Shown here piece by piece: positions 75 through 32,277 of a stretch of 32,277 bases of DNA. How positions within the stretch are numbered: position 1 is the stretch's first letter; the number at the start of each line of letters is the position of its first letter. The stretch lies in the NCBI GenBank assembly GCA_964454705.1, contig CAYVXU010000009.1, positions 1 to 32,277 of the forward strand, in the 5' to 3' direction. The notes under the pieces were generated by a model, which worked only from the letters and a program-made list of their open reading frames with translations, searched no databases and was not told where the DNA came from. The DNA is from an uncultured Candidatus Saccharibacteria bacterium (GTDB lineage: Bacteria; Patescibacteriota; Minisyncoccia; CAYVXU01). The position numbers were made by a program, and so were the translations under genes.

Positions 75-1760
75 TTACTCACGAATACTGGTGAACTCAA
101 AGCGACCGATAATCTTCGGCACACCTCCTGCCATCCATCCGGCATACGCAAGCGAGAGGAGCAGAAACACAAGCACAGGAACCAGTGCGCCCATCTCATA
201 ATAGAGGTAGAGCGCGCCTGCGCCAAGCGCGCCGTATATAAGTGAGATAAATACAAATGCGATGCCGGGCAGCGAAGTGCCAAGCGCCTGGGGATCGTCA
301 GTATCGAAATTAGGGTATCGGGCACCGAGCCAGAGACTGAAAAAGGTAATAAGGGGTGCGGCGGTCCCCACAAGCAGGAGGTAAAGTGCGGCTCCGCCAA
401 TGGTCCAGGGAAGAATGTTCATATTGAGCAGAGCGGCGGTGAGCCCAAAGAAGAAAAAGACACCACAGAAGAAGAGTGTTTTTGCCCAGAAAAGCCCTGC
501 AAGCGGGATTGGCGCGCTTCCTATAATCCACGCGGATGAGCGTTCGGTGCTGAAGGAAGGGAATGCAAACCGCAGGGCAAGCGCACTTACAAAATAGACT
601 GCGACCAGAAGCTGAAGGGCGCTCAAGAGAGGCGGGAATTGCGCATCCGCCGCTCCCTGCCTTATCACCATGCGGGTGAGCACTCCGTTGAGCACAATCT
701 GGATAAGCCACAGCGAAAGAAGAAAACCAAGCCACCATATATTACGCGGATTCCGCACCATCACAAGAAATTCTTTTTCTCCTACCACCCCAATTTGATG
801 CCGGGAAAAATGGGGAAAACCAATTTCAACCGATTTTGAAGACCGCACATGCGCCCGGTGCGACCCTTCCTGCAGCCTTTGCCAGAGCGCAAGGTGCCAT
901 TGAGCCGAAATCATATATAACCCCGCAACGCCAAGGGTCACAAGAAGAAGTGCGCCCGCAAGCGCTCCCGCCACTGTATCCTCGCCTAGATGTACCGCAA
1001 GGAATATCCTTGCCGCAATATGTGAGGGGGTATAGGCAAAGTGATATGCTACTTCTTCTACCTGCGCAGTAACACGCTGGGTATCGATACGTATGAGCGC
1101 CTCTATTCCCGGAAATGCAAGGGAGTACCACGTAAAAAGCGATACCGCAATCCCGAGGACAAGCATAACCGCGCCAAACCATCGCCGGAGTCTCAATCTA
1201 CCTCGCCGTACCTGTGACACGAACACTAATATCTTTCCCGCGCCAATGAGCATGAACGCCACGCCGCATACCGTAGCTCCCACAAGCATGACAAGCGAGA
1301 TGAATGCGATTATACTTCCCGCCGCAGAGATTCCGAATACGCTCCGCATCGCGGCAAGGAGCGGTATCGCAATGAGCGCCAATGGCCACAGCGCTACCGC
1401 AAAGGTGCGCGTTGCCTGCAGCCACGGGAGCATGCGATGCCGGGGGGAGGCCATAATCCAAGTATCATGCGCTCGTACACTCATTGCGGTGCCGATGGTA
1501 ATAAGGCTCGAAAGAAAGACGAGATACCAGATAATAGCGAGGAAGAGTTCGTAGAGGAGAGCAGGTACTGCAAAATGGAAGTACTGGTACTCATCCTGCG
1601 CGAGGAAACGAAAGCCTGCCCGGAAAAAGAAATAGAGCCCCACTCCCACTGCGAGGCCAAGTACTCCAAATGCTCCTGCCACCGCAAGCCGCGCGCTGCG
1701 TTCATGGGTAAAGTAACGTATCGCGCGGTGTATGAATATCGCAAAAAGTTGGGAGATCAT
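75..1760 (-). CDS. Polytopic membrane protein, probable permease partner of the adjacent ABC ATPase
   Basis: 561-aa uninterrupted ORF with hydrophobic helices along its whole length. Its ATG (1758-1760) overlaps the TAA of the upstream ATPase gene (TAATG), implying translational coupling. Confidence 0.75.
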   Translation of the reverse strand: MISQLFAIFIHRAIRYFTHERSARLAVAGAFGVLGLAVGVGLYFFFRAGFRFLAQDEYQYFHFAVPALLYELFLAIIWYLVFLSSLITIGTAMSVRAHDTWIMASPRHRMLPWLQATRTFAVALWPLALIAIPLLAAMRSVFGISAAGSIIAFISLVMLVGATVCGVAFMLIGAGKILVFVSQVRRGRLRLRRWFGAVMLVLGIAVSLFTWYSLAFPGIEALIRIDTQRVTAQVEEVAYHFAYTPSHIAARIFLAVHLGEDTVAGALAGALLLVTLGVAGLYMISAQWHLALWQRLQEGSHRAHVRSSKSVEIGFPHFSRHQIGVVGEKEFLVMVRNPRNIWWLGFLLSLWLIQIVLNGVLTRMVIRQGAADAQFPPLLSALQLLVAVYFVSALALRFAFPSFSTERSSAWIIGSAPIPLAGLFWAKTLFFCGVFFFFGLTAALLNMNILPWTIGGAALYLLLVGTAAPLITFFSLWLGARYPNFDTDDPQALGTSLPGIAFVFISLIYGALGAGALYLYYEMGALVPVLVFLLLSLAYAGWMAGGVPKIIGRFEFTSIRE

Positions 1761-2485
1761 TACGAGCGAGTTAACGCAAGGTAAGCTTCATCGAGCGAGG
1801 CGTAACTCGGGAGATGTGCGGCGAGAAGAATTTCCGAAAGTGAGCCATGCGCCGTTAACCTCCCCTCGCGGAGAATGCCGATACGCGATGCAATTGCCTG
1901 GGCAACCGAGAGAGTGTGGATAGCGAGAAGAATTGTGCCCCCCTCCTTTGCGAATGACACGAACAGTTTCGAAGCAACTGCAGCGCTCGCAGGGTCAAGG
2001 CCCACCATCGGCTCGTCAATAAGAAGCAGTTTTGGTTGGTGGAGGAGTGCGGCGAGAATGGAAAATTTTTGACGGTTTCCCCGCGAGTAGTCATCGAAAT
2101 ACTGGTATGCCATGTCCTCAAGTCGGAAGAGGGCGAGCAACTCCGGAATACGCTTCGCGCTGGTCTTTCGCGGTATACCGTAAAGACTTCCTACCATCGA
2201 GAGAAATTCGAGCCCGGTCATTCCAGGCCAGATTACAGGGTCATCCGGGATATACCCCATTTTACTTTTTGCCCGTACCGGCTCTTCGGCGAGCGGCACG
2301 CGGTCTACCCGAATTGTACCTGTATGTGGATGCAGCAACCCCGCGATGCACTTTATGAGCGTTGTTTTTCCTGAACCATTCGGGCCGATAAGCGCAAATA
2401 TCTCCCCCGCCTTGAGGGAAAGCGAAACATTCTCCAGCGCCACCACCCCCCCAAATTTTTTAGTAAGCCCTTCTACGACGAGCAT
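1760..2485 (-). CDS. ABC transporter ATP-binding protein
   Basis: Walker A GPNGSGKTT, signature-like YSRGNRQK, Walker B LLLIDEP, H-loop AIHT. The first ATG is 2485 (MLVVEGLTKKF); the track start 2506 is a TTG inside the upstream repeat. Confidence 0.9.
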   Translation of the reverse strand: MLVVEGLTKKFGGVVALENVSLSLKAGEIFALIGPNGSGKTTLIKCIAGLLHPHTGTIRVDRVPLAEEPVRAKSKMGYIPDDPVIWPGMTGLEFLSMVGSLYGIPRKTSAKRIPELLALFRLEDMAYQYFDDYSRGNRQKFSILAALLHQPKLLLIDEPMVGLDPASAAVASKLFVSFAKEGGTILLAIHTLSVAQAIASRIGILREGRLTAHGSLSEILLAAHLPSYASLDEAYLALTRS

Positions 2486-2492
2486 AAAATAC

Positions 2493-2604
2493 AATTCAAA
2501 ATGCAAAAATCAAAAGTCAAAATTGTGGTAGCCGCTCCGCGGATATTTTAATACTTTTGCCTTTTGACTTGTACTTTTGCGTTTTGATTTTTGACTTTTG
2601 AGTT
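2493..2604. repeat. AT-rich imperfect palindrome, subfamily 1, copy 1
   Basis: The left end AATTCAAAATGCAAAAATCAAAAGTCAAAAT (2493-2523) is imperfectly inverted at the right end (TTTTGATTTTTGACTTTTGAG, 2582-2602). It is 29/31 identical to the left end of the copy at 5090 and starts 8 nt from the ATG at 2485. Confidence 0.8.
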
Positions 2605-2613
2605 TGAGGCGAA

Positions 2614-2680
2614 AGCTAAGTAGCTAATAAAGCTAGTAAGCTAATGAAGCTTCCTATAACCTATCACCTATAAGCTATAA
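2614..2680. repeat. Two short tandem arrays: an AGCT-core 8/9-bp unit x5, then a CCTATAA-like heptamer x4
   Basis: AGCT occurs at 2614, 2622, 2631, 2639, 2648 (spacing 8,9,8,9). CCTATAA CCTATCA CCTATAA GCTATAA occupies 2653-2680. Confidence 0.7.
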
Positions 2681-2692
2681 CCTCGTTGAAAA

Positions 2693-3799: not shown

Positions 3800-3822
3800 C
3801 AAGCTCACCTTCTACCTTCGGT

Positions 3823-3952
3823 AATTTCAAATTTCAAAATCCAAATGTCAAATAAATGTGGAAAACCTCAATGTCCAATGACAAAAATCGAAGCTGCCTC
3901 TTTGGATTTTGGAAATTGGGGTTTTATTTGAAATTTGGATTTTGTCATTTGG
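3823..3952. repeat. AT-rich imperfect palindrome, subfamily 2, long copy
   Basis: About 130 bp folding around 3890-3904. Its ends match the reverse complement of the element at 31290-31378 (36/37 and 26/27 nt). Confidence 0.85.
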
Positions 3953-4025
3953 TTTTTTGAGTGTATGTAATATAGAACTGCCACGTACGTCTCCTACCAT
4001 AGCCAGGATGTATCACCTGTCACCC

Positions 4026-4621: not shown

Positions 4622-4744
4622 ACTATTGCTTGAGAATAATGAGAAGGCCAATAAGAATAATTACCCCGGGCCATATGAGATGCCACGGAAACATGAAATG
4701 CGGAAGGGTTTGGCTTGCGAGCGCGAAGGCACCTCCTGCAACAA

Positions 4745-5083
4745 TCAGCAGGCCAAAGATATTCTTCCCGCGCGAAAAAACTCTCTCGATTGCATATCCT
4801 TCGCGAATGAATGCGCTTTTTCTTTCATATTTTCTGCCATATGTCTTACCGAATCTGCAGGGTTCACTTCGCCGGGTGTGGTCATAAAGGGCTCCTCCGG
4901 AATGACGACAAGCGAGAGAAGGTACACAATAACCATAAACCCACTCGTCACAAAGAGGAGAATGAGGAATATAAACCGCACGAGCGCGGGATCTACATCA
5001 AAGTATTCTCCGAGACCCCCGGCGACCCCGCCGAGAATCCGGTTGGTACGCGAACGAAATAAGCGTTTTTGCATGTTGGACAT
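4745..5083 (-). CDS. PspC-domain membrane protein, apparently truncated by a -1 frame break (corrected model 4623..5083)
   Basis: RILGGVAGGLGEYFDVDPALVRFIFLIL matches the PspC domain consensus. The ORF stops at 4745, but the -1 frame continues from the A6 run (4775-4780) with two further TM helices to TAG 4623-4625. Confidence 0.8.
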   Translation of the reverse strand: MSNMQKRLFRSRTNRILGGVAGGLGEYFDVDPALVRFIFLILLFVTSGFMVIVYLLSLVVIPEEPFMTTPGEVNPADSVRHMAENMKEKAHSFAKDMQSREFFRAGRISLAC

Positions 5084-5089
5084 TATATT

Positions 5090-5208
5090 AATTCAAAATT
5101 CAAAAATCAAATGTCAAAATGAAAGATTAAAAATTGAAAAAGCAACGCTGCAGTATTTTTTTGGTTCTTTTTACATTTTACATTTTCATTTTGATTTTTG
5201 CATTTGAG
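5090..5208. repeat. AT-rich imperfect palindrome, subfamily 1, copy 2
   Basis: The ends (AATTCAAAATTCAAAAATCAAATGTCAAAAT ... TTTTGATTTTTGCATTTGAG) match the copy at 2493-2604. It fills the whole gap between the stop at 5209-5211 and ATG 5083. Confidence 0.8.
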
Positions 5209-6021
5209 TTAAAAAGAAACATATTCTGACAAACGGACAAATCTATACCCCTGGCTCGTGAGGTCGTCAAGAAGAAACGGTAGTACGTCGGCATCCAAAG
5301 TAGATTTATCCTGCGGGTGCGAGCCCAGATGCATAAGTATAATACCTCCCGGGCCCGCTCGCTTGCGAATGCGTTCACGGATGGTGTGAACGCTCTCCCC
5401 TCCTGATGTTCCTTTCCATCCAGCGGTATCCACGGTCCATCCGACCGCGATATACCCAAGCGACTCGATGAATGAGAGATCTTCGGGCTTGTACTCGCCG
5501 TATGGAAATCGAAAGTAAGGCGTGAGAGACCTTCCCAAGCGGGCAGCCTCATCCTCGGTTCTTTTTATTTCGCTCTGTTTTTTTTCTTCGGAGAGAGCGG
5601 GAAAGTGTGGATGCGAGTATGAGTGATTTCCCATGTCAGCAGGCACATATGCGAATATATCGCGCGTTTCAGCAGGAAATTTCTTTATGAAGTTGCCCGT
5701 GAGAAAGAACGTGCCAGGAATTCTGCGCGCGTGCAGTGTGGCTAAAATGGTTTTTACCCCCGCCGCATTTCCGCCGCCGTCAAAGGTGAGCGCAATCACA
5801 CGATCCTTGGTGGGGAGACGCGGGACATACCCTCTCACCAACTTTGGTGTGGACGCGGGAGAAGGAGAAACATCCATCGCAATACTTGGCAGAGGGGAAT
5901 CGATATTCGGCGATGCGCTCGGCTCGACAACAAATGAAATGCCACCGCGGTAGATGAAGTAGACGATTCCTGTGCCGACTATGGCGAGCAGTACAAAGAA
6001 AAACAAAAGAAAGCGGCTCAT
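5209..6021 (-). CDS. Polysaccharide deacetylase (CE4 / NodB homology domain), membrane-anchored
   Basis: Signal anchor, then LTFDGG, HSYSHP, RFPYGEY and IILMH motifs in the CE4 order. Confidence 0.9.
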   Translation of the reverse strand: MSRFLLFFFVLLAIVGTGIVYFIYRGGISFVVEPSASPNIDSPLPSIAMDVSPSPASTPKLVRGYVPRLPTKDRVIALTFDGGGNAAGVKTILATLHARRIPGTFFLTGNFIKKFPAETRDIFAYVPADMGNHSYSHPHFPALSEEKKQSEIKRTEDEAARLGRSLTPYFRFPYGEYKPEDLSFIESLGYIAVGWTVDTAGWKGTSGGESVHTIRERIRKRAGPGGIILMHLGSHPQDKSTLDADVLPFLLDDLTSQGYRFVRLSEYVSF

Positions 6022-11187: not shown

Positions 11188-11253
11188 CCCGTTAGAGAAA
11201 AGCCGCCCCTAGCGGCTGCCGCCGTGCCTTCGGCGGGGCGGTTCTCTAACGGG
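11188..11253 (+). repeat. 66-nt GC-rich multi-hairpin palindromic element, copy 1
   Basis: Outer 12-bp stem CCCGTTAGAGAA / TTCTCTAACGGG encloses two hairpins (AGCCGC..GCGGCT and CCGCCG-TGCCTT-CGGCGG). It is 63/66 identical to the reverse complement of 22238-22303 and sits exactly between two divergent -35 boxes. Confidence 0.85.
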
Positions 11254-19221: not shown

Positions 19222-19304
19222 GAAATTTTCAATTTACAATTTCTAATTTTCAATTGAAAATTTGGATATTGAGAATTCATTGAAAATTGCAAATTGAGAA
19301 TTGG
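19222..19304. repeat. AT-rich nested palindrome (CAATT-word type)
   Basis: Perfect 14-bp palindrome TTTTCAATTGAAAA (19247-19260). AATTTTCAAT occurs at 19225 and 19245 and inverted at 19280. The direct repeat ATTGAGAATT occurs at 19268 and 19293. Confidence 0.75.
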
Positions 19305-22237: not shown

Positions 22238-22303
22238 CCCGTTAGAGAACCGCCCTGCCGAAGGCACGGCGGCAGCCGCTAGGAGCGGCTTTTCTCTCAC
22301 GGG
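22238..22303 (-). repeat. 66-nt GC-rich multi-hairpin palindromic element, copy 2 (inverted)
   Basis: Its reverse complement is 63/66 identical to 11188-11253. It contains the TGA stop (22297-22299) of the kinase gene and ends 1 nt from the -35 of the glutaredoxin promoter. Confidence 0.85.
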
Positions 22304-31272: not shown

Positions 31273-31290
31273 TACGATAGTGCTATCGTA
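31273..31290. promoter_or_regulatory. 18-bp palindrome 3 nt upstream of the rplS ATG
   Basis: TACGATAG-TG-CTATCGTA (8+8 perfect arms). No SD lies between it and the ATG. Confidence 0.4.
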
Positions 31291-31378
31291 AATCCAAATG
31301 ACCAAATCCAAATTTCAAATTATCGGACATTGAGATTTTGACATTTATTTAACATTTGGATTTTGAAATTTGAAATTC
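31290..31378. repeat. AT-rich imperfect palindrome, subfamily 2, short copy
   Basis: Its reverse complement aligns with 3823-3952 apart from a ~45-nt central deletion. It lies between the RluA-family stop (31386) and the rplS start. Confidence 0.85.
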
Positions 31379-31385
31379 TTGAAAG

Positions 31386-32135
31386 TTAGGCAATGGTAGC
31401 AGGATTTGCCTGATTTCGCAAGTATGCAAGCGCCTTTTGGAAATCATCCGGAAGCGGCGCCTCAAACTCATAGAGCATCCCGGACGGATACTCAAAGGAG
31501 AGTGAGGCTGCATGCAGCATCTGCCGTGTTACTCCCGGAAGATGCGCTTGGCGTTTAAACTTGTACTTCTCATCGCCCACTACCGGGTGACCGATGGATG
31601 CGAGATGCACCCGTATCTGATGCGTGCGCCCGCTTTTAGGAAATACCTCAAGGAGAGTATACTCCGCCTCGCCATCAGACGAGGCTAACGCAAACCGCTC
31701 TTTTACTTTATATTCCGTAACCGCGGTTTTGCGTTTGACCTCTGTATCGGACCGCAGTACTTTCGTTTTTCCCTCTTCCTTTATAAGCGCCGTATCAATA
31801 ACTCCTTTTTCCTGCCGCACCGCACCATACACAAGCGCAAGGTACTTTTTGTGTACCGTCCGCCCCTGAAATGCCGATTTCAGATAGGTAAATGCCTTAC
31901 GCGTCTTCGCAATTACCATTACTCCCGAAGTATCTTTATCAAGCCGGTGTACAATCCCCGGCCGCGTCGTGTCTTCACCTACTTCTTTTATGTGAGGATA
32001 GTTCTCAAGAAGCCAGTCCACAAGCGTTGGCTCATGCGAAGAGGGAGTTGGATGCACCAACAACCCGGATGGCTTGTCTATGATCAGAAAGTTATTACGT
32101 TCATACAGTATTCGAGGATTTTGAGGTGTATGCAT
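31386..32135 (-). CDS. RluA-family pseudouridine synthase
   Basis: HRLDKDTSGVMVIAK catalytic motif and HQIRVHLA. The first ATG is 32135; the track start 32177 is a TTG inside the repeat. Confidence 0.9.
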   Translation of the reverse strand: MHTPQNPRILYERNNFLIIDKPSGLLVHPTPSSHEPTLVDWLLENYPHIKEVGEDTTRPGIVHRLDKDTSGVMVIAKTRKAFTYLKSAFQGRTVHKKYLALVYGAVRQEKGVIDTALIKEEGKTKVLRSDTEVKRKTAVTEYKVKERFALASSDGEAEYTLLEVFPKSGRTHQIRVHLASIGHPVVGDEKYKFKRQAHLPGVTRQMLHAASLSFEYPSGMLYEFEAPLPDDFQKALAYLRNQANPATIA

Positions 32136-32141
32136 GAATCT

Positions 32142-32277
32142 AGAAATTCCAAATCCCAAGCACCAAATTCCAAACAATAATAAAATCCAAATTACCTAAA
32201 TCTCAAACATTTAGACATTTTGGTCATTGGAGATTGAGATTTGCTTGGTATTTGGGATTTGGATTTTGGAATTTCCA
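32142..32277. repeat. AT-rich imperfect palindrome related to subfamily 2 (reaches the window edge)
   Basis: GAAATTCC (32143-32150) pairs with GGAATTTC (32268-32275), and AAATCTCAA pairs with TTGAGATTT near the centre. It shares words with 31290-31378 and starts 7 nt from ATG 32135. Confidence 0.7.

What the first reader, a model, noticed from the sequence alone, without database searches (positions are those of the whole stretch)
2493..2604. MITE-like AT-rich palindrome, subfamily 1 (second copy at 5090-5208)
Two elements of ~112 and ~119 bp at unrelated loci share near-identical ends. Left ends are 29/31 identical (AATTCAAAAT[G/T]CAAAAATCAAA[A/T]GTCAAAAT). Right ends read TTTTGATTTTTG..TTTGAG. 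The right end is an inverted copy of the left end, while the ~60-bp cores differ. Conserved terminal inverted repeats around a variable core are the architecture of miniature mobile elements, not of ordinary terminators. Both copies begin 7-8 nt from an ATG that lacks an SD. Copy 2 occupies the complete intercistronic space, so it must either be part of the mRNA or carry the signals for the downstream gene.
Basis: seen in the sequence. Interest (0 to 1): 0.65.

Follow-up and report, generated by a model that had tools for sequence, protein, structure and literature searches.

The report
Gene-less hairpin repeats between genes
The two AT-rich palindromes are real copies of a many-copy selfish hairpin repeat that fills the short gaps between genes in an uncultured groundwater bacterium, and they look like stripped-down versions of a longer element that carries a small four-helix-bundle gene known from ribosomal-RNA intervening sequences.

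Summary
Elements at 2493-2605 and 5090-5208 share 29/31 left-end bases; dinucleotide shuffles reach 24 at most. Both have inverted arms around unrelated cores.

The arms are arrays of 7-nt words, CAAAANN on one side and NNTTTTG on the other. Period-7 autocorrelation is 0.62-0.77.

In the source metagenome, 29-44 contigs match the arms. Summed depth is 340-455 on the arms against 11.8 in the flanks, with sharp ends at 2492/2493 and 2598-2601. Four more palindromes of the same build lie in the window.

The same arms occur in other metagenomes, for example filling the S14-S8 and L29-S17 spacers of a ribosomal-protein operon. Relatives about 92% identical lack those inserts.

Longer elements of about 450-490 bp in other candidate-phyla-radiation (CPR) bacteria have the same two ends around a PF05635 gene (four-helix bundle, '23S rRNA intervening-sequence protein'). 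Both window copies align to both ends of these. Copy 1 keeps the first 13 codons with ATG changed to ACG.

So 'MITE-like' holds for architecture and copy number. No target-site duplication and no transposase partner were found. The closest known relative is the rRNA intervening sequence (IVS), not an IS-derived MITE.

RNA behaviour is inferred.

The parts
2493..2605 (-). Copy 1, whole element (about 113 bp). In element sense it reads on the minus strand, the same direction as the flanking genes.
   Evidence: Homology with other copies in the sample starts at 2492/2493 and ends at 2598-2601. The alignment to long element L138 starts at about 2605.
2553..2605 (-). Copy 1, 5' arm in element sense. 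About seven NNTTTTG words on the plus strand, read as CAAAANN on the minus strand. Homologous to the 5' end of PF05635-bearing elements, including their first 13 codons. The start codon is degenerate (ACG at 2582-2580).
   Evidence: about 80% identity over 62 nt to L138, score 65 against a maximum of 47 in 200 seven-mer-block shuffles; 4 other contigs in the sample read A at 2581, which gives ATG on the minus strand. Period 7.
2524..2552 (.). Copy 1 core. Not shared with copy 2. Holds a 4-bp GC mini-hairpin, CCGC-TCC-GCGG.
   Evidence: Depth over the core is only about 3 times the flank at 80% likeness.
2493..2523 (-). Copy 1, 3' arm in element sense. Four CAAAANN words on the plus strand. On the minus strand it reads ...TTTTGATTTTTGCATTTTGAATT, then 7 nt, then the ATG of the ABC ATPase gene.
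   Evidence: Exact 31-nt unitigs at depth 27-50 against 11.8. Its 22 nt are identical to the arm in the L108 S14-S8 spacer.
5090..5208 (+). Copy 2, whole element (119 bp). Fills the spacer between the stop of the deacetylase gene (5209-5211) and the ATG of pspC (5083-5081). It aligns better in plus orientation to long element L088.
   Evidence: The 5' half scores 65 and the 3' half 52, against block-shuffle maxima of 58 and 39. The first 23 nt from 5088 are identical to the L088 left end.
5090..5135 (+). Copy 2 left arm (CAAAANN words). Highly repeated in the sample.
   Evidence: summed depth about 420 against 11.5 in the flank. Left boundaries at 5087-5090.
5165..5208 (+). Copy 2 right arm (NNTTTTG words, ending TTTGAGTT). 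Less repeated than the left arm.
   Evidence: depth about 55 against 11.5. Period 7.
1760..2485 (-). ABC transporter ATPase gene. Its ATG lies 7 nt from copy 1 and has no SD.
   Evidence: PF00005, E 7.6e-31.
4745..5083 (-). PspC-domain gene. Its ATG lies 6 nt from copy 2 and has no SD.
   Evidence: PF04024, E 1.2e-21.
5209..6021 (-). Polysaccharide deacetylase gene. Its stop codon abuts copy 2.
   Evidence: PF01522, E 1e-23.
3814..3964 (.). Same class of heptamer-word palindrome, with a different word (CCAAAT/TCAAAT). Lies between divergent genes.
   Evidence: I9; z -4.5 and -5.3.
19223..19304 (.). Same class; word CAATTT / AAATTG.
   Evidence: (I17).
31290..31386 (.). Same class. Related to the 3814 element (arms 86-94% complementary across the two loci).
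   Evidence: (I3, I6).
32143..32275 (.). Same class; word CCAAAT. Lies 6-7 nt from the minus-strand ATG at 32136 and runs to the end of the window.
   Evidence: I2; z -4.7.

Best explanation
The two copies are gene-less members (about 113 and 119 bp) of a multi-copy family of AT-rich hairpin elements. Their arms are inverted arrays of 7-nt words (CAAAANN ... NNTTTTG, consensus ends AATTCAAAA...TTTTGAATT).

They are internally deleted derivatives of elements of about 450-490 bp found in other candidate-phyla-radiation (CPR) bacteria. [quoted passage not shown] The conserved N-terminus of that protein, MQNYNSKFKS, is itself encoded by the CAAAA words.

The elements insert into, and nearly fill, the short spacers between genes of compact genomes.

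Inferred, not shown:
- Here they are co-transcribed with the flanking minus-strand genes.
- The RNA folds back on itself, so the roughly 110-nt insert loops out and the upstream stop and downstream SD-less start stay close.
- By analogy with rRNA intervening sequences, the long AU-rich stem is a likely RNase III substrate.

How the DNA moves is unknown.
For: Real repeat:
- 29/31 end identity against at most 24 in shuffles.
- 41-44 contigs of the source metagenome match 2440-2660 at 80% or more. Summed depth is 340 on the left arm and 455 on the right arm, against 11.8 in the flanks.
- Exact 31-36-nt arm unitigs have depth 27-80.
- Copy 2's left arm reaches about 420 against 11.5.
- Boundaries are sharp at 2492/2493 and 2598-2601, with different flanks beyond them.

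Class:
- Six palindromes with period-7 arms lie in the window.

Family outside this genome:
- 30 of 130 exact arm-pattern hits in metagenome contigs have the partner arm. In viral contigs 0 of 38 do.

Insertion:
- In locus L108 the family fills the S14-S8 and L29-S17 spacers of a ribosomal-protein operon.
- Contigs of relatives about 92% identical read TGG TGA T ATG at S14-S8. They also lack the L29-S17 and S8-L6 inserts.

Long form:
- L062 and L088 carry a PF05635 gene between the same arms (Pfam E 8.8e-19).
- Independent CPR loci L131, L138 and L140 show the same layout: stop, CAAAA words, ATG of the 4HB gene, then TTTTG words. In L138 and L140 the words run to 6 and 0 nt from the next ATG (L138 ends TTTTGAATT, L140 TTTTAAATT); in L131 a further ~35 nt of other sequence precedes the ATG.

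Deletion-derivative relation:
- Both halves of each window copy align to the two ends of the long forms, above all 7-mer-block shuffles.
- A contig in the window's own sample equals the L088 element with the ORF body (384 nt) replaced by 13 nt.

Precedent:
- The Coxiella 23S IVS has a PF05635-type ORF (S23p), tandem GACAGAT heptamers and a 28-bp terminal stem cut by RNase III (PMC4990558).
- PF05635 genes of Nostoc, Anabaena, Chlorohelix, Treponema and Bernardetia are also flanked by heptamer arrays.
Against: - No target-site duplication flanks either window copy. One probable empty site in L108 shows only a 2-nt ambiguity.
- No PF05635 gene is in the window. No contig of the source sample matches an ORF body at 80% nt or more. 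A long form in this genome is therefore unproven.
- The arms are low-complexity, which inflates similarity. Margins over block shuffles are modest for some halves (65 against 58).
- Presence/absence was shown only in another organism. The window's lineage has no close relative; the best ABC ATPase hit is 60% identical.
- Summed contig depth may include other organisms.
- RNA folds on the mRNA strand are only moderately better than shuffles (-24.6 kcal/mol, z -2.45; -20.5 kcal/mol, z -1.83).
- No RNA data exist.
Confidence: 0.6

Rival explanations
1. A host regulatory element. [quoted passage not shown] That factor would control the SD-less genes that follow, as proposed for TAACTGA heptamer repeats in Beggiatoaceae.
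For: - In the window, five of six elements end 6-20 nt from an SD-less ATG.
- The pentamer CAAAA/TTTTG is kept while the 2-nt spacer varies.
- The family's GAATT end sits about 6-7 nt from the ATG in several foreign loci.
- TAACTGA repeats likewise sit just upstream of RBS-less starts (PMC4679880).
Against: - Of 30 family members elsewhere, 6 lie between convergent gene ends.
- Close relatives of L108 do without the elements in an essential ribosomal operon. Their empty junctions are already SD-less (TGATATG at S14-S8; TAATATTATG from the probable L24-L5 joint).
- Downstream genes are functionally unrelated.
- Exaptation of individual copies cannot be excluded.
Confidence: 0.15
2. A classical IS-derived MITE, mobilised in trans by a DDE or other transposase that recognises the AATTCAAAA ends.
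For: It has terminal inverted repeats, small size, many copies, an AT-rich intergenic location and presence/absence among relatives.
Against: - No target-site duplication at either copy.
- Every longer element found with these ends carries only a 4HB gene of about 124 aa and no transposase.
- The arms are long word arrays rather than a short defined TIR.
Confidence: 0.12
3. An extended intrinsic (bidirectional) terminator or mRNA-stabilising hairpin that evolved in place.
For: - Copy 1's core has a small GC hairpin followed by T-rich sequence, scored as terminator-like on the plus strand.
- In every element the A-rich arm precedes the T-rich arm on both strands.
- Some family members lie between convergent genes.
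Against: - The terminator-like hit is on the strand opposite to the flanking genes. Terminator-like hits in the region are no more frequent than in shuffles (4 against 4.3).
- Ordinary GC-rich terminators exist elsewhere in the window.
- Near-identical arms at many loci and empty sites in relatives point to dispersal.
- One element lies between divergent starts.
Confidence: 0.08
4. A chance resemblance between low-complexity AT-rich spacers.
For: Word arrays make partial matches easy. Seven-mer-block shuffles reach alignment scores of 39-58.
Against: - 29/31 identity against at most 24 in shuffles.
- Exact 31-36-mers occur at several times the flank depth.
- Homology boundaries are sharp.
- The viral control gave 0 of 38 palindromic hits.
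Confidence: 0.02

Closest known systems
Bacterial rRNA intervening sequences (IVS) with an S23p / PF05635 ORF, e.g. Coxiella burnetii and Leptospira 23S rRNA (PMC4990558; short ORF-less IVS and 23S_rRNA_IVP ORFs are also reported in CPR rRNA genes, PMC11270868)
   Same: - A selfish hairpin insert whose terminal inverted repeats form a long stem.
- Tandem heptameric repeats in the arm next to the ORF start, varying in number between strains.
- The loop holds a PF05635 four-helix-bundle ORF, or nothing in short forms.
- The insert is tolerated because the transcript folds it out.
   Different: - Here the elements lie between protein-coding genes, not in rRNA helices.
- The window copies have lost the ORF.
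- They are present in many copies per genome.
- RNase III cleavage is not shown.
Bacterial MITEs and MITE-like intergenic repeats (Correia/NEMIS, ERIC/IRU, RUP, BOX; review PMC3184786)
   Same: Elements of about 100-150 bp, non-coding, with terminal inverted repeats. They are multi-copy, intergenic and co-transcribed, and fold as RNA hairpins. They arise as internal-deletion derivatives of a longer element with the same ends.
   Different: No target-site duplication. The longer partner encodes a 4HB protein rather than a transposase. The arms are arrays of 7-nt words.
REPINs (REP doublets forming hairpins, mobilised by RAYT; PMC3116915)
   Same: Two conserved inverted arms around a less conserved spacer. 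Many copies. Confined to extragenic space.
   Different: REP arms are short, GC-rich and individually palindromic. A RAYT gene defines the system, and none could be looked for here.
Heptamer direct-repeat arrays: TAACTGA repeats of Beggiatoaceae, cyanobacteria and Bacteroidetes (PMC4679880); cyanobacterial STRR heptamers (own knowledge)
   Same: Seven-nt word arrays in intergenic DNA, often within a few nt of start codons that lack an RBS. Strain differences come in 7-nt steps. Distribution is patchy across phyla.
   Different: Those are described as direct arrays without a partner arm, core or ORF-bearing long form. Here the arrays are paired in inverted orientation.

Membership tests
MITE (IS-derived miniature inverted-repeat transposable element) | Small (under about 500 bp) and non-coding | tested here: met
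   About 113 and 119 bp. No ORF of 50 aa or more lies within them.
MITE (IS-derived miniature inverted-repeat transposable element) | Terminal inverted repeats | tested here: met
   83% complementarity over 30 nt (copy 1) and 74% over 38 nt (copy 2). Ends read AATTCAAAA...TTTTGA(G/A)TT.
MITE (IS-derived miniature inverted-repeat transposable element) | Many dispersed copies in the genome | tested here: inconclusive
   Two copies in the window. 29-44 contigs in the source metagenome carry the arms, and exact arm unitigs reach 2-7 times the flank depth.
MITE (IS-derived miniature inverted-repeat transposable element) | Target-site duplication flanking each copy | tested here: not met
   Copy 1 flanks are ...AAAATAC | element | TGAGGCG. 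Copy 2 flanks are ...ATTATATT | element | AAAAAGA. No direct repeat is present. The L108 L24-L5 joint has only a 2-nt ambiguity.
MITE (IS-derived miniature inverted-repeat transposable element) | A longer autonomous element with the same ends that encodes a transposase | tested here: not met
   Longer elements with both ends were found (L062, L088, L131, L138, L140). They encode only a PF05635 protein of about 124 aa.
MITE (IS-derived miniature inverted-repeat transposable element) | Presence/absence at orthologous sites (evidence of movement) | tested here: inconclusive
   Met for family members in L108, where relatives lack the S14-S8 and L29-S17 inserts. Not testable for the window, which has no relative closer than 60% aa.
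rRNA intervening sequence (IVS) with S23p/PF05635 | Inserted in an rRNA gene helix | tested here: not met
   Both copies lie between protein-coding genes. No rRNA is in the window.
rRNA intervening sequence (IVS) with S23p/PF05635 | Terminal inverted repeats that form a long stem enclosing the rest | tested here: met
rRNA intervening sequence (IVS) with S23p/PF05635 | Tandem heptameric repeats in the arm upstream of the ORF (Coxiella) | tested here: met
   Period-7 arms. Compare GACAGAT repeats in PMC4990558.
rRNA intervening sequence (IVS) with S23p/PF05635 | PF05635 ORF in the loop | tested here: not met
   Absent from the window copies. Copy 1 keeps only a remnant of the first 13 codons. 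The ORF is present in long relatives.
rRNA intervening sequence (IVS) with S23p/PF05635 | Excised from the transcript by RNase III | not testable with these tools
   No RNA runs hold the window.
REPIN / RAYT system | Arms are REP sequences (short, GC-rich, each an imperfect palindrome) | tested here: not met
   The arms are AT-rich word arrays with no self-complementarity.
REPIN / RAYT system | A RAYT (IS200/IS605-like TnpA) gene in the genome, flanked by the repeats | not testable with these tools
None is in the window (one search covers only part of the genes).
TAACTGA-type heptamer direct repeats | Direct arrays of one heptamer immediately upstream of RBS-less start codons | tested here: inconclusive
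   Word arrays abut SD-less ATGs at 6-7 nt. However, the words vary, the arrays are paired as inverted arms, and other members lie at gene ends.

The most novel reading that the evidence does not exclude
PF05635 four-helix-bundle ('23S rRNA intervening-sequence', Avd-like) genes are the cargo, and possibly the mobility or maintenance factor, of a cross-phylum class of hairpin elements. The arms of these elements are inverted arrays of 7-nt words.

On this reading:
- rRNA intervening sequences, cyanobacterial heptamer repeats and these CPR palindromes are all manifestations of that class.
- The window's elements are its gene-less miniatures.
- The miniatures have colonised stop-to-start junctions, even inside ribosomal-protein operons.
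- They are tolerated because the transcript folds the insert out.
Probability: 0.3. Interest if true: 0.8.

Novelty: new variant of a known kind. Interest (0 to 1): 0.6.

Why it matters
CPR/Patescibacteria genomes are small and are usually described as poor in mobile DNA. Here a hairpin repeat family appears to occupy many of the few intergenic spacers. In a related case it occupies nearly every junction of a ribosomal-protein operon. That bears on how SD-less, tightly coupled genes stay expressed after a 110-nt insertion.

The link to PF05635 genes offers a testable origin for rRNA intervening sequences. It may also explain why heptamer arrays recur next to 'four helix bundle protein' genes in cyanobacteria, Chloroflexota, spirochaetes and Coxiella. 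None of the six literature searches run here found a description of this link outside rRNA.

On the practical side, these repeats break short-read assemblies. Logan contigs end inside the arms. The repeats also create false ORF starts.

Tried and rejected
Contigs of the source run were laid on the elements instead.
- Orthologous loci of the window. The genome-contig scan with the SIMPL protein gave only relatives at 49% aa or less, without such elements. The ABC ATPase has no relative above 60%.
- The PspC protein is not on record by exact sequence.
- RNA evidence. No RNA run holds the window.
- Rfam. Only two tRNAs were found in the window.
- Promoter reading. TTGAnn words recur every 7 nt and give -35-like hexamers, but no acceptable -10 lies at the right distance from the ATGs. 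The one scanner hit (TTGATT-17-TATAAT, 5110-5082) overlaps the ATG itself. Promoter-like hits are not enriched (5 against 4.3 in shuffles).
- Leaderless-promoter geometry (TGAATT as a -10) was rejected because it lacks the A at position 2.
- Search for a transposase between distant arm pairs. L127, L011 and L020 hold only separate elements next to pilin, mur-like or tRNA genes.
- Long form in the window's own sample. No contig matches the L088 ORF body at 80% nt or more.
- Phage carriage. 36 viral contigs match the arm pattern, but none has a partner arm.

Full report
**Observation**

- The left ends 2493-2523 and 5090-5120 agree at 29 of 31 positions (family D1). I pooled the window's other AT-rich palindromes and shuffled the pool 300 times, keeping dinucleotides. 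The best 31-mer match averaged 18.7 and never exceeded 24.
- Each element has inverted arms: 83% complementary over 30 nt in copy 1 and 74% over 38 nt in copy 2.
- The cores are unrelated.
- All flanking genes are on the minus strand. The ATG of an ABC ATPase gene (2485-2483) lies 7 nt from copy 1. The ATG of a PspC-domain gene (5083-5081) lies 6 nt from copy 2. Copy 2 also touches the stop codon of a polysaccharide deacetylase gene at 5209-5211.
- Neither ATG has a Shine-Dalgarno motif, although other genes in the window do.

**Anatomy**

The arms are not plain inverted repeats. They are arrays of 7-nt words.
- Copy 1 reads AATT CAAAATG CAAAAAT CAAAAGT CAAAATT on the left. On the right it has about seven NNTTTTG words.
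- Lag-7 autocorrelation is 0.62-0.77 in the four arms. At most 1 of 500 shuffles reaches the observed value.
- The pentamer is kept while the two spacer bases vary. Simple slippage would not give that pattern.
- Because of the periodicity, the hairpin can pair in several registers.
- On the mRNA (minus) strand the predicted folds are -24.6 kcal/mol (z -2.45) and -20.5 kcal/mol (z -1.83). That is only moderately better than shuffles.

**A class within the window**

Four more palindromes have the same build with other words: 3814-3964, 19223-19304, 31290-31386 and 32143-32275. In all six, the C/A-rich arm comes first on either strand. Other intergenic regions in the window carry ordinary GC-rich hairpins.

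**Copy number and boundaries**

I therefore laid the contigs of the two public groundwater runs that hold the window on the elements.
- At 80% likeness, 41-44 contigs match 2440-2660. Summed depth rises from 11.8 in the flanks to about 340 on the left arm and about 455 on the right arm. Over the core it is about 36.
- At 97% likeness, exact unitigs of 31-36 nt cover the arms at depth 27-80. The window's own contig breaks inside the repeat.
- Homology ends sharply at 2492/2493 and at 2598-2601. Several different sequences lie beyond those points.
- Three other contigs span nearly the whole of copy 1, core included, at about 88-92% identity.
- Copy 2's left arm reaches about 420 against 11.5 and its right arm about 55. 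Its core is single-copy.
- Summed depth may include other organisms. Still, most of the matching contigs have depths of 5-23, like the window's own.

**The family outside this genome**

- The window is a contig of a CPR/Patescibacteria MAG. The same DNA is in GCA_005239765.1.
- Its closest relatives are distant: 49% aa for the SIMPL protein and 60% for the ABC ATPase. Orthologous sites could not be compared.
- Of the 130 matches, 30 have the complementary arm within 160 nt.
- As a control, the same pattern in viral contigs gave 38 matches, none with a partner arm.

**Evidence of insertion**

Locus L108 comes from a hot-spring metagenome and has GC 0.35. It is a ribosomal-protein operon (L16 to S5).
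- Almost every stop-to-start spacer there is 61-161 nt long, and most are word palindromes.
- The S14-S8 and L29-S17 spacers hold two copies of the present family. The two copies are about 95% alike, core included. Twenty-two nt of their arm are identical to the reverse complement of window 2496-2517.
- Other spacers in L108 use TTAGCT/AGCTAA or GTCAAAT words.
- I laid contigs from other hot-spring runs on L108. A relative about 92% identical in the genes reads ...TGG TGA T ATG... at S14-S8. It also lacks the L29-S17 and S8-L6 inserts. These three joints are supported by sides of 97-255 nt.
- A further joint removes exactly 103 nt at L24-L5 and leaves TAA TATT ATG. It rests on short sides and is only probable.
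- So the elements are gained or lost between close relatives.
- The empty junctions are already SD-less. This explains why filled junctions show an SD-less ATG a few bases beyond the element.

**Positional rule**

Among the 30 palindromic members elsewhere, at least 9 fill a co-directional stop-to-start spacer. Six lie between convergent gene ends and one lies between divergent starts. The elements fill short spacers of any kind. Closeness to a start codon is a by-product.

**The long form**

- In L062 and L088 the same left and right arms enclose a gene of 123-124 aa. Pfam assigns it to PF05635, '23S rRNA-intervening sequence protein' (E 8.8e-19).
- The L088 protein has more than 1500 homologues. 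The named ones come from CPR bacteria.
- Their N-terminus, MQNYNSKFKSDL, is almost invariant. It is encoded by CAAAA-type words.
- Three loci fetched through the protein, not through the DNA pattern (L131, L138, L140), share one layout: the upstream stop, 14-21 nt of CAAAA words, the ATG of the 4HB gene, its stop, then 45-83 nt that begin with TTTTG words before the ATG of the next gene. In L138 the words end TTTTGAATT, 6 nt from that ATG. In L140 they end TTTTAAATT and abut it. In L131 the words end ...TTTTGATT and about 35 nt of other sequence follow.

**The window copies as deletion derivatives**

- Copy 1, read on the minus strand, aligns to the first 63 nt of the L138 element at about 80% identity. 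The score is 65, against a maximum of 47 in 200 seven-mer-block shuffles.
- That stretch includes the first 13 codons, with ACG in place of ATG at 2582-2580. Four other contigs in the sample read ATG there.
- Its other arm aligns to the L138 3' end.
- Copy 2, read on the plus strand, aligns to both ends of L088 (scores 65 and 52; shuffle maxima 58 and 39).
- In the window's own sample, one contig equals the L088 element with the 384-nt ORF body replaced by 13 nt.
- No contig there matches an ORF body at 80% nt or more, and the window holds no PF05635 gene. A long form in this genome is not shown.

**Generality and precedent**

- The Coxiella 23S rRNA intervening sequence carries a PF05635-type ORF (S23p). 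It has three or four tandem GACAGAT heptamers before the start codon, varying in number between strains. A 28-bp stem of terminal inverted repeats is cut by RNase III (PMC4990558).
- 23S_rRNA_IVP ORFs and short ORF-less inserts are reported in CPR rRNA genes (PMC11270868).
- I took five PF05635 genes from plasmids of cultured bacteria without regard to their flanks: Nostoc punctiforme, Anabaena cylindrica, Chlorohelix, Treponema saccharophilum and Bernardetia. All are flanked by short-word arrays (heptamers in most), each with its own word, and in three or four cases the arrays are inverted. So are further PF05635 genes in L111 and L055.
- The six literature searches run here found no description of this association outside rRNA.

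**How it most likely works**

Shown:
- A dispersed repeat with conserved word-array arms.
- Homology of both ends to PF05635-bearing elements.
- Presence/absence in relatives of another carrier.

Inferred:
- The window copies are transcribed with the flanking genes. Copy 2 leaves no room for separate signals, and promoter-like and terminator-like hits are not enriched.
- The RNA folds back, so the insert is looped out.
- A ribosome terminating at the stop codon would melt the base of the stem and expose the start 6-7 nt beyond it. That would keep coupled translation working.
- By analogy with IVS, RNase III may cut the stem.

The mechanism of DNA movement is unknown. No target-site duplication and no transposase were found.

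**Rivals**

- A host regulatory array, like the TAACTGA repeats (PMC4679880), cannot be excluded for individual copies. It does not explain the convergent-end copies or the empty sites.
- A transposase-driven MITE lacks its two defining supports.
- A terminator reading fails on strand and on enrichment.
- Chance is excluded.

**Verdict**

'MITE-like' is partly supported. I file the elements as a new variant of a known kind: gene-less, intergenic relatives of IVS-type hairpin elements. Confidence in the main explanation is 0.6. The main gaps are the missing whole-genome scan and the absence of any RNA data.

Noticed in passing
window 2606-2690: Next to copy 1 lie two more word arrays: AGCTAA-type words at about 2614-2650 and TATAACC-type words at about 2655-2685. 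They are also multi-copy in the source sample (depth 33-100 against 11.8 at 80% likeness; about 36 at 97%). TTAGCT/AGCTAA palindromes fill the L14-L24 and L5-S14 spacers of L108.
   Followed up: partly
window 11188-11253 and 22238-22303: A 66-nt GC-rich repeat is present twice in inverted orientation, 95% complementary (I1). It is a different repeat family from the AT-rich palindromes.
   Followed up: no
L108 (reverse strand), S8-L6 spacer, locus positions about 1384-1552: A 161-nt GC-rich structured insert lies between S8 and L6. In a relative about 92% identical it is replaced by 12 nt. A second, unrelated kind of insert uses the same type of junction.
   Followed up: partly
L146-L150 (plasmids of Anabaena cylindrica PCC 7122, Nostoc punctiforme PCC 73102, Bernardetia, Chlorohelix, Treponema saccharophilum): Annotated 'four helix bundle protein' (PF05635) genes are flanked by arrays of heptamer words. 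Examples are GTCGGAG/TCCGACC in Nostoc, GGATGAA/TTCATAA in Chlorohelix and CTCTCCG in Treponema. The Anabaena gene sits between cas2 and cas1.
   Followed up: partly
L030, L046, L063 (same locus in three metagenomes): TTTTGAATT word arrays alternate with GC-rich hairpins (TTGCGCCTGATGGCGCAA). The number of 7-nt words differs between the three assemblies, so the arrays change in 7-nt steps.
   Followed up: no
L020 650-2200: A cluster of tRNA genes has family-type palindromes in three of the spacers between them.
   Followed up: no
window 4626-5207 (+) and 1760-2506 (-): ORF callers read into the elements. The 193-aa plus-strand ORF and the TTG-extended start at 2506 are artefacts of the word arrays.
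   Followed up: partly
window 4745-5083: The exact PspC product is not on record. I did not verify this.
   Followed up: no
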